This document shows positions 50,481-51,900 of a stretch of 64,000 bases of DNA, in pieces. The stretch spans positions 5,766,001 to 5,830,000 of the forward strand of contig OX597828.1 of NCBI GenBank assembly GCA_951406725.2. The letters run 5' to 3'. The notes under the pieces were generated by a model, which worked only from the letters and a program-made list of their open reading frames with translations, did not search any database and was not told the DNA's origin. Positions within the stretch are counted from its first letter, which is position 1. Every line of letters begins with the position of its first letter. The stretch comes from Octopus vulgaris (taxonomy: Eukaryota). The translations under genes were made by a program, and so were the position numbers.

Positions 50481-51214
50481 TGATCGAATGTATTCCTACT
50501 CTCTATGATTCTCTGGCGAGCTTCAATATATCTAAATCATGGCTATCGTCGTTTTCACCCACAGTAACATGAAAATTATCATTTTTGAAAATGTTCTCCT
50601 TTTCTCCAATAATTGCTTCTATACATACATACATACATACATACATACATACATACATACATACACACACACACATACACCCACACACGCACATATATAT
50701 ATATACTCAAAATAAGTTGGAACGATCGTTTCACACTACATCATTTTATTAAACATTGTAAGTATTACAACAGTTTTAAACTGTTTAATAAAATGAAGTA
50801 GCGTGAAACAATCGTACCAAATTACCGAAGATATTCTTGTTGCTTATTTTGATGATAATCACCCATGTATTTATTTGGATAACACCGTACAACATTCTGG
50901 TGCATCTGACTTAAATACCATATTCATTTGAATCTAAATTTTGCTGAACGTATATATATATATATATATATATATATATATATATATATATATATATATA
51001 ATAGATTTCTAAATATAGCAGAGAGATATATGCAGTAGTGGTACGGTAGAGTAGTTGTATACTGTCAACTTAATCTGACAGTCCCATGAAGAGAATAACA
51101 CTACTACTATTTAGTCTTAGGAAGCAGCAACGCTTCCTGTCAGACTTGACACATTTTTTGTGCCCTTATCTTTACAAGGGGGAGACAAGCACCTCCACCT
51201 AGCTATGCCTGCAA

Positions 51215-51255
51215 CCAGAGACTAGTTTCTGCGTCTTTGCTCGTCATCAGTCTGG
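51215..51255 (-). ncRNA. Type I hammerhead ribozyme motif
   Basis: Minus strand CCAGA-CTGATGA-CGAG-CAAAGA-CGCA-GAAAC-TA-GTC-TCTGG: perfect 5-bp stem I, canonical core, GUC triplet; stem II has a mismatch. Confidence 0.75.
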
Positions 51256-51516
51256 AGTAGCATGGCTGGAGATGCCTGTATAGCCCTTGTAAACATATAA
51301 GAATTCTAGTGAAATAAATCCACTGATTACAAAAATAGAAATAATACATTTCCAAATATCTCAGAGAGATATATGCAGTAGTGGTACGATACAGTAATTG
51401 TATACTGTCAACTTAATGTGACAGTCCCATGAAAGGAATATCACTACTAATATTTAGCCCTAAGATGTAGTTTACAAGGGCTAGACAGGCATCTCCAGCT
51501 AGCAGGCCATGCTACT

Positions 51517-51557
51517 CCAGACTGATGACGAGCAAAAACTCAGAAACTAGTATCTGG
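51517..51557 (+). ncRNA. Type I hammerhead ribozyme motif
   Basis: CCAGA-CTGATGA-C-GAG-CAAAAA-CTC-A-GAAAC-TA-GTA-TCTGG: perfect stem I, canonical core, palindromic ACTAGT at stem III, GUA triplet. Confidence 0.8.
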
Positions 51558-51720
51558 CTGCAGACTTAGCTGGGTGGAGGTGCATGTCTCTCCCTTGTAA
51601 ACATAAGGACACAGGAAATATGTCAAGGCCGACAGGAAGCGTTGCTGCTTCCTAGGGCTAAATAGCAGTTGTATTATTCCCTTCATGGGACTGTCACATT
51701 AAGCTGACAGTATACAACTA

Positions 51721-51900
51721 CTCTCTCTCTCTCTCTCTCTCTCTCTCTATATATATATATATATATATATATATATATATATATATATATATATATATAT
51801 ATATATATATATATATATATATATATATATATATATATATATATATATATATATATATATATATATATATATATATATATATATATGTATATATATATAT
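51721..51900. repeat. (CT)n-(AT)n microsatellite
   Basis: Directly visible. Comparable (TA)n-rich tracts occur at ~1731-1792, 7385-7570, 35520-35850, 40690-41020, 43850-43992 and 58056-58270. Confidence 0.98.

What the first reader, a model, noticed from the sequence alone, without database searches (positions are those of the whole stretch)
51005..51724. Retrozyme-like locus: 343-nt hammerhead unit in tandem plus inverted copy, one ribozyme on each strand
Seen: a non-coding unit repeated 1.3 times head-to-tail and then inverted (arms ~250 bp, spacer ~175 nt). Hammerheads at 51215-51255 (-) and 51517-51557 (+) share a perfect CCAGA/TCTGG stem I and differ at the triplet (GUC vs GUA, both permissive). 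The unit has further hairpins (AGGAAGC..GCTTCCT, CTGTCA..TGACAG). Established: metazoan non-LTR retrozymes are few-hundred-nt hammerhead monomers that form circular RNAs and are thought to use PLE proteins. Inference: this is a retrozyme-like family, possibly undescribed in this host. A read-through transcript from either strand holds one ribozyme plus its antisense, so self-cleavage would compete with long-hairpin formation. Caveats: with one ribozyme per strand this locus alone cannot release a monomer, and stem II opens with a non-canonical C-A juxtaposition.
Basis: partly seen in the sequence, partly recalled or inferred. Interest (0 to 1): 0.8.

Follow-up and report, generated by a model that had tools for sequence, protein, structure and literature searches.

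The report
Hammerhead retrozyme spread Penelope-style, LINE-targeted
This is one decayed copy of a roughly 350-base non-coding mobile repeat that carries a hammerhead-ribozyme motif; its tandem-plus-inverted shape is likely the normal footprint of Penelope-type retrotransposition, and two other retrotransposon families sit at one spot just upstream of the ribozyme in many of its copies elsewhere in the genome.

Summary
Observation confirmed. The locus is three pieces of one ~350-nt non-coding unit (343 is local: copy A lost 8 nt) inside an (AT)n tract. The unit is a dispersed family (726 exact hits of one 20-mer; ~2,400 pieces estimated) with a type I hammerhead whose stems covary across subfamilies and whose helix III is a palindrome (dimer-type). 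The layout is no two-ribozyme device but a Penelope-like-element (PLE) insertion footprint: partial tandems, 5'-side inversions only, two 3' ends ~50 nt apart, one per arm (56 of 60), AT-microsatellite bias. No ORF-bearing parent was found; long arrays are absent; 5' ends do not pile up at the cut site. At this locus both ribozymes are predicted to be masked and one is broken. Unexpected: two L1/Tx1-group LINE families end 19-31 nt upstream of the ribozyme core in most best copies (19 of 30; 15 of 21), several with target-site duplications. Expression as a circle and cleavage are untested. Verdict: new non-autonomous PLE/retrozyme family, ordinary locus, interesting LINE-target twist.

The parts
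50951..51000 (.). (AT)n microsatellite, left half of the likely target site
   Evidence: sequence; AT-tract bias of family 3' ends
50992..51343 (-). Copy A: full unit (unit positions 1-359), ending at the long 3' end ('tail'); 89% to reference copy L012; 8-nt deletion upstream of the ribozyme
51215..51255 (-). Type I hammerhead of copy A, GUC triplet, predicted cut between 51220 and 51219; stem II broken, predicted not to fold
51335..51465 (-). Copy B: 3' part of the preceding unit (229-359), head-to-tail upstream of A: the partial tandem
51470..51727 (+). Copy C: inverted, 5'-truncated arm (unit 50-306), ending at the short 3' end; 93% to L012
51517..51557 (+). Type I hammerhead of copy C, core intact, GUA triplet, predicted cut 51552/51553; 2-bp palindromic helix III (dimer-type)
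51495..51512 (+). Empty LINE target site (unit ~75-92) just upstream of the ribozyme; occupied by L1/Tx1-group LINEs in other copies
51722..51900 (.). (CT)n(AT)n microsatellite, right half of the likely target site
   Evidence: same junction type in many copies

Best explanation
The locus is one old insertion of a dispersed ~350-nt non-coding hammerhead repeat, likely a non-autonomous Penelope-like element (retrozyme type) that was copied in trans by a PLE reverse transcriptase/GIY-YIG endonuclease. Shown: closed 350-nt unit, no ORF, partial tandems, 5'-only inversions, two fixed 3' ends, AT-tract flanks, covarying ribozyme stems, intact autonomous PLEs in the same genome. Inferred: the PLE protein nicks both strands of an (AT)n tract and primes cDNA twice on one RNA, once at each of two internal start sites ~50 nt apart, giving the tails-out inversion with one long and one short end; the template runs across the unit junction (an uncut dimer transcript or a circle) and is not a cut linear monomer. 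The ribozyme likely cuts only as a dimer (palindromic helix III), so rare dimer loci would be the only source of monomers or circles; this locus is likely inert. Two L1/Tx1-group LINE families likely use the site just upstream of the ribozyme as a specific target.
For: Family: 252 exact hits of a ribozyme 19-mer, 726 of a 3' 20-mer, controls 0. Of 87 loci chosen by the ribozyme word: 34 partial tandem, 28 inverted on the 5' side, 0 on the 3' side; 3' ends 47 at unit 297-307 and 24 at 350-359. Of 181 loci 83 tails-out, 1 tails-in; 56 long+short versus 2 long+long and 2 short+short, 23 unclassed. (AT)4 within 30 nt of 63 of 225 ends versus 174 of 3620 flank windows. These are the PLE hallmarks in PMC8557442 and PMC3846280 (passages); two adjacent internal RT start sites, both-strand nicking of AT-rich DNA and use of uncut RNA were shown in vitro for an anole PLE (PMC11167929, parts 1-2 read). 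No pile-up of 5' ends at the cut site: 2 seen, 3.2 expected, 97 pieces. Pieces within a locus are more alike than controls, tandem (20 of 23) as much as inverted (65 of 75). Ribozyme stems covary: 7 of 9 pairs change on both sides, 0 of 500 shuffles; helix III palindromic in 114 of 135. Monomer folding z -9.8. Autonomous RT+GIY-YIG PLEs present, one family with its own similar ribozyme.
Against: No autonomous PLE shares DNA similarity with the unit (50 PLE loci), so the partner is unidentified; only the best 150 of 6136 GIY-YIG candidates were scored and 50 loci read. No copy pair above 97.2% apart from a local triplication: the family looks inactive, so the mechanism is read from fossils. 30 of the 181 loci were picked by a query that itself holds the inversion, which inflates the inversion count. 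Covariation across related subfamilies counts inherited changes many times. The within-locus similarity may reflect shared subfamily only and does not tell circle from linear dimer. Cleavage and RNA form untested.
Confidence: 0.82

Rival explanations
1. Solo pseudo-LTR remnants of an ORF-bearing PLE whose body I did not find.
For: Size, ribozyme and tail are those of a pLTR; 5'-truncated PLEs leave such pieces, often on opposite strands 100-700 bp apart (PMC4209133). PLE protein fragments lie within 1.5 kb in 3 of 186 loci.
Against: The unit's 3' end joins its own 5' start directly in 34 of 87 loci and in full dimers, leaving no room for an ORF; the three PLE fragments are 5'-truncated pieces separated from the unit by microsatellite or other DNA.
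Confidence: 0.08
2. Classical retrozyme cycle: dimers are transcribed, cut to monomers, circularised, and the circle is the PLE template. Compatible with the best explanation; it differs in requiring an abundant ~350-nt circle.
For: Dimers with two intact ribozymes exist (L032); cDNAs cross both the cut site and the unit junction; two copies run further upstream than a dimer transcript starting at unit ~85 would allow (L059, L136); one chimera joins two ribozyme families within the GUC of the cut site (L137).
Against: 5' ends pile up at unit 76-94 (12 of 28 at risk after removing 4 LINE-linked starts, 3.5 expected; window chosen after seeing the data; 6 of 3000 simulations reach this in any window), which fits a linear RNA with a fixed start better than a circle; 3 of 5 dimers start at 83-94; no long arrays.
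Confidence: 0.35
3. A selected regulatory device in which sense and antisense ribozymes compete with hairpin formation.
For: Copy C alone is predicted to fold stems I and II (probabilities 0.94-0.99); a read-through RNA would form a ~250-bp duplex.
Against: The layout is generic to the family; arms differ by 13% with indels like neutral copies; one ribozyme is broken; helix III needs a same-strand partner; no evidence of transcription of this locus.
Confidence: 0.03
4. The LINE-ribozyme adjacency comes mainly from a few composite elements re-copied by the PLE route (hitch-hiking), not from repeated site-specific LINE insertion.
For: No upstream half of the unit in 7 of 9 long loci; no TSD in 7 of 10 on-target copies whose 5' end was in view; inverted unit arms directly upstream of short LINE pieces (L270, L288).
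Against: Clean TSDs splitting the unit in L271, L272, L291, L278, and tandem L274; several nick positions, several diverged target subfamilies and two LINE families; off-target copies carry TSDs that begin with a similar TTYARC-like motif. Both processes likely occur.
Confidence: 0.25

Closest known systems
Metazoan non-LTR retrozymes (Cervera and de la Pena 2020, PMC7229834; Li, Clavereau, Pollet 2026, bioRxiv 10.64898/2026.07.22.740005)
   Same: 150-450-nt non-coding low-GC unit (42% GC) with a type I hammerhead, palindromic helix III, mismatch at the base of helix II (U.U in axolotl HHR_Amex2), head-to-tail dimers, co-occurrence with PLEs
   Different: Almost all copies are dispersed monomers or partial tandems with PLE-type inversions and tails; no long arrays; no RNA circle shown; no sister pLTR of an autonomous PLE found
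Penelope-like elements, EN+ clades, and their non-autonomous derivatives such as MRC1 (PMC8557442, PMC3846280, PMC11167929)
   Same: Partial tandem, inverted 5'-truncated arm, optional tail at one end, microsatellite/AT targets, hammerhead in the repeat
   Different: No RT/GIY-YIG ORF; the whole element is pLTR-sized; tail ~50 nt rather than 30-40
Target-specific Tx1-clade LINEs that insert into other transposons (Tx1 into Tx1D, Tx1-Mar into Mariner-N4; PMC4494074 passages)
   Same: APE/RT/zinc-finger relatives, 10-21-nt TSDs, far above Kojima's 20% criterion for target specificity, tandem insertion at the target
   Different: Target here is a hammerhead-bearing PLE-type repeat; one family is a short zinc-knuckle-ORF-only element; clade (L1 vs Tx1) not resolved by a tree

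Membership tests
non-LTR retrozyme | type I hammerhead with conserved core in a 150-450-nt non-coding unit | tested here: met
   350-352-nt unit; core and covarying stems; no Rfam hit
non-LTR retrozyme | tandem units with two or more same-strand ribozymes | tested here: inconclusive
   Not met at this locus. Family: 2 exact dimers genome-wide, 3 more among 87 loci, both ribozymes intact in L032; no longer arrays seen
non-LTR retrozyme | no ORF or LTR-type structure | tested here: met
   unit closes on itself; no PLE ORF contiguous in 186 loci; PBS/PPT not searched
non-LTR retrozyme | abundant monomer-length linear and circular RNA | not testable with these tools
   only assembled contigs of runs guessed to be RNA were available
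non-LTR retrozyme | self-cleavage in vitro | not testable with these tools
   bench assay needed; 8 of 9 Xenopus dimers did not cleave
Penelope-like element (non-autonomous) | partial tandem forming a pLTR-like repeat | tested here: met
   34 of 87 loci
Penelope-like element (non-autonomous) | inverted 5'-truncated arm, tails outward | tested here: met
   28 of 87 on the 5' side, 0 on the 3' side; 83 tails-out, 1 tails-in of 181
Penelope-like element (non-autonomous) | optional 3' tail at one end only | tested here: met
   71 of 87 3' ends in two clusters; 56 of 60 classed inversions have one long and one short end
Penelope-like element (non-autonomous) | AT-rich or microsatellite targets | tested here: met
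   63 of 225 ends versus 174 of 3620 background
Penelope-like element (non-autonomous) | sequence-related autonomous partner | tested here: inconclusive
   autonomous PLEs present but no DNA match in 50 loci; search not exhaustive
Penelope-like element (autonomous) | RT plus GIY-YIG ORF | tested here: not met
target-specific Tx1-clade LINE (the guests) | over 20% of copies flanked by one target, with TSDs | tested here: met
   19 of 30 and 15 of 21 best matches, query loci included; TSDs in 5 on-target loci
target-specific Tx1-clade LINE (the guests) | RT groups with Tx1 in a tree; endonuclease cuts the target | not tested
   only domain content of 5 homologues (RVT_1, zf-RVT, APE)

The most novel reading that the evidence does not exclude
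A three-tier parasite system: autonomous PLEs mobilise a hammerhead retrozyme, and L1/Tx1-group LINEs have evolved to insert at one site just upstream of its ribozyme, at the unit's likely transcription start, across several ribozyme subfamilies; the LINE would borrow the retrozyme promoter, and LINE-retrozyme composites would be re-copied by the PLE enzyme from the retrozyme tail. A hammerhead/PLE repeat as a specific LINE target was not found in my searches.
Probability: 0.55. Interest if true: 0.68.

Novelty: new member of a known kind. Interest (0 to 1): 0.5.

Why it matters
Retrozyme mobilisation by PLEs has been argued from co-occurrence and pLTR similarity; this family shows the PLE integration footprint directly on an ORF-less ribozyme unit, and the 56-to-4 pairing of long with short ends is a genomic test of the two-start-site priming seen in vitro. 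The lack of 5' ends at the cut site bears on the open question whether ribozyme cleavage matters for PLE or retrozyme spread. The LINEs that home next to the ribozyme would add a new target class for site-specific retrotransposons and give a defined endonuclease-target pair to assay. The window locus itself is an ordinary decayed copy.

Tried and rejected
Rfam scans: no hammerhead family reached threshold or E<=10; miRNA-type hits reflect the inverted repeat. Search for arrays: 2 exact dimers at 315-345 spacing; a 905-nt tandem at C1:150.06 Mb is a local amplification of a ribozyme-less inverted piece (L263). Search for a parent PLE: none. Expression: no RNA holder on record was listed; family sequence lies in contigs of 4 runs from 3 studies guessed to be RNA, with no information on ends, strand or circles; not counted for or against. 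Further copies of the L137 chimera and of its reciprocal: 2 other pattern hits, both chance. A second copy-number estimate failed because the relevant loci had been dropped as duplicates. Earlier scan notes: none found. Literature: searches listed no paper on a LINE targeting a hammerhead or PLE repeat; Repbase and subscription journals are not covered, and supplements of the 2026 preprint were not seen. Host identity was not tested; from recalled traits I guessed a cephalopod and checked one octopus repeat paper (PMC13282606, passages): no mention of ribozymes.

Full report
Observation. Mapped on a natural full copy (L012), the locus is copy A (50992-51343, minus, unit 1-359), copy B (51335-51465, minus, unit 229-359, head-to-tail upstream of A) and copy C (51470-51727, plus, unit 50-306), with both 3' ends pointing outward into (AT)n and (CT)n(AT)n tracts. 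The monomer is 350-352 nt; the 343 spacing comes from an 8-nt deletion in A. The genome is a 2.8-Gb animal-type assembly; the host was not determined.

Family. A DNA search gave 2940 candidates, 40 scored, at 80-93% identity on many contigs. Exact words give 252 (ribozyme 19-mer) and 726 (3' 20-mer) hits with zero controls; 32 of 107 independently chosen pieces hold the 3' word, suggesting about 2,400 pieces (rough). Nearest-neighbour identity among 135 long copies has median 93.9% and, apart from a local triplication, maximum 97.2%, so the family is old. Diverged subfamilies appeared later.

Ribozyme. Type I fold at the tip of a ~50-bp helix I; monomer folding z -9.8 against 100 shuffles. On 30 hand-picked cores from several subfamilies, 7 of 9 pairs change on both sides and 0 of 500 shuffles or any slid control reach the score (four rows were misaligned by MAFFT, and related rows inflate such counts). 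In 135 parsed cores helix III is palindromic in 114 (inserts CTAG, CATG, CATGCATG and others), the triplet is GUC in 118, and stem II opens with C.A in 98, U.A in 15, U.U in 13. Short palindromic helix III means activity as a dimer (PMC4209133, parts 1-2 read); a U.U base of helix II is known from axolotl (PMC7229834, passages and Discussion) and is also in the ribozyme of an autonomous PLE family of this genome. In the window, copy C alone would fold stems I and II, copy A would not, and in either read-through transcript stem I probability is 0.0.

Architecture. Of 87 loci chosen only by the ribozyme word, 34 have a partial tandem, 28 an inverted arm on the 5' side, none on the 3' side, 13 both; 3' ends fall at unit 297-307 (47) or 350-359 (24), 16 elsewhere. 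Over 181 loci, 83 are tails-out, 1 tails-in, 97 single-strand; among the tails-out loci 56 have one long and one short end, 2 two long, 2 two short, 23 an unclassed end (30 loci came from a query containing the inversion). 63 of 225 ends abut (AT)4 against 174 of 3620 background windows. These are the described PLE insertion features (PMC8557442 passages; PMC3846280 passages), and match the in vitro finding of two internal RT start sites, nicking of both strands of AT-rich DNA and use of uncut RNA (PMC11167929). The window locus is exactly this pattern: long end left, short end right. Pieces in one locus are more alike than controls (inverted 65 of 75, tandem 20 of 23), in line with a single event, though shared subfamily could explain it.

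Not a pLTR of a found parent. The genome holds intact PLEs (148 GIY-YIG matches among 150 scored of 6136 candidates; 781-aa RT+GIY-YIG frames) but none of 50 such loci matches the unit at DNA level. PLE proteins hit 3 of 186 unit loci, as separate truncated pieces. The unit's end joins its own start, leaving no ORF. Direct two-ribozyme dimers are rare: 2 exact genome-wide, 3 more in 87 loci; both cores are intact in L032. A 2026 preprint (main text to the Discussion read) already argues that animal retrozymes are non-autonomous PLE derivatives, so the class is known.

Template. In 97 pieces chosen by the 3' word, 5' ends show no excess at the cut site (2 seen, 3.2 expected) but 16 of 32 at risk stop at unit 76-94. 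Four of these are LINE junctions; the remaining 12 of 28 (3.5 expected; 6 of 3000 simulations in any window) suggest a fixed RNA 5' end just upstream of the ribozyme, with a weak TATA-like stretch ~30-35 nt before it (inference). A cut linear monomer is therefore not the usual template; uncut dimer transcripts or circles remain. One locus, L137, has both inverted arms made of this ribozyme's 5' half joined within the GUC triplet to the 3' half of a second, unrelated ribozyme family with a U3-A8 core; this fits cleavage followed by cross-ligation or template jumping, but also plain microhomology switching, and it is a single case.

LINE target. 9 of 42 pieces starting at unit 70-95 have AATAAA within 20 nt upstream, against 2 of 199 elsewhere. 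The upstream pieces are 3' ends of two LINE-type families: one with RT and a C-terminal zinc finger whose homologues carry APE, RT and zf-RVT domains, one ~1.7-1.9 kb with only a zinc-knuckle ORF. Searching from the LINE side, 19 of the 30 best copies of the second family (query locus included; 30 of 40 scored matches read) end 19-31 nt before a ribozyme core of this superfamily or a related one, 4 more are followed by a target-like remnant, 7 lie elsewhere. For the first family 15 of 21 matches (3 already known) run into the unit, 2 into target remnants, 2 into diverged ribozymes, 2 elsewhere. TSDs of 10-21 nt split the unit in L271, L272, L291, L278 and L274. Against: no upstream half in 7 of 9 long loci and no TSD in 7 of 10 on-target copies with the 5' end in view, which points to re-copying of composites or to deletions. 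Tx1-clade LINEs are known to target other transposons (PMC4494074 passages); my searches listed no case with a hammerhead or PLE target, but Repbase and closed journals were not covered.

Verdict. Real feature; a new non-autonomous PLE/retrozyme family; the tandem-plus-inverted, one-ribozyme-per-strand layout is an insertion footprint with no sign of function at this locus. Expression, circles and cleavage are untested (searches give no usable evidence). Interest 0.5, carried mostly by the family-level mechanism statistics and the LINE targeting.

Noticed in passing
L137:1340-1640 (G000:C3:116938200): Inverted insertion whose two arms both join this family's ribozyme 5' half, at the GUC cut triplet, to the 3' end of a second repeat family.
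   Followed up: yes
L172-L190, around 1430-1565 in element sense: Second multi-copy family (890 candidates) ending in (AT)n with inverted arms and two tail lengths; carries a likely hammerhead variant with a U3-A8 core and ACCGGU helix III palindrome.
   Followed up: partly
L093-L098: Young autonomous PLE family with intact 781-aa RT+GIY-YIG frames and CCAAT/CRE-like repeats after the ORF; no ribozyme seen in the stretch held.
   Followed up: partly
L099, L100, L102, L105, L109, L110 (~470 nt after the ORF end): Second autonomous PLE family with a type I hammerhead in its 3' repeat (U.U at the base of stem II, AGUACU palindrome); a candidate trans-acting partner.
   Followed up: partly
L294, L174:818-882, L108:3647-3711, L317, L320: Further diverged hammerhead repeat families; one is also hit by the zinc-knuckle LINE.
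   Followed up: partly
L263 (G000:C1:150060000-150066500): Five-fold ~905-nt tandem amplification of a ribozyme-less inverted piece of the family.
   Followed up: no
L044-L046 (G000:C1:131.77-131.81 Mb): Three 98%-identical copies about 15 kb apart: local segmental triplication; ribozyme core broken.
   Followed up: no
window 239-662 (-): Decayed PLE RT fragment (weak tblastn hits), unrelated in position to the finding.
   Followed up: partly
window 2405-3112, 4714-5085, 13776-14359, 18614-19102, 36996-37667: Open frames that look like LINE RT, mariner transposase and Helitron fragments (by eye; names recalled, not scanned).
   Followed up: no
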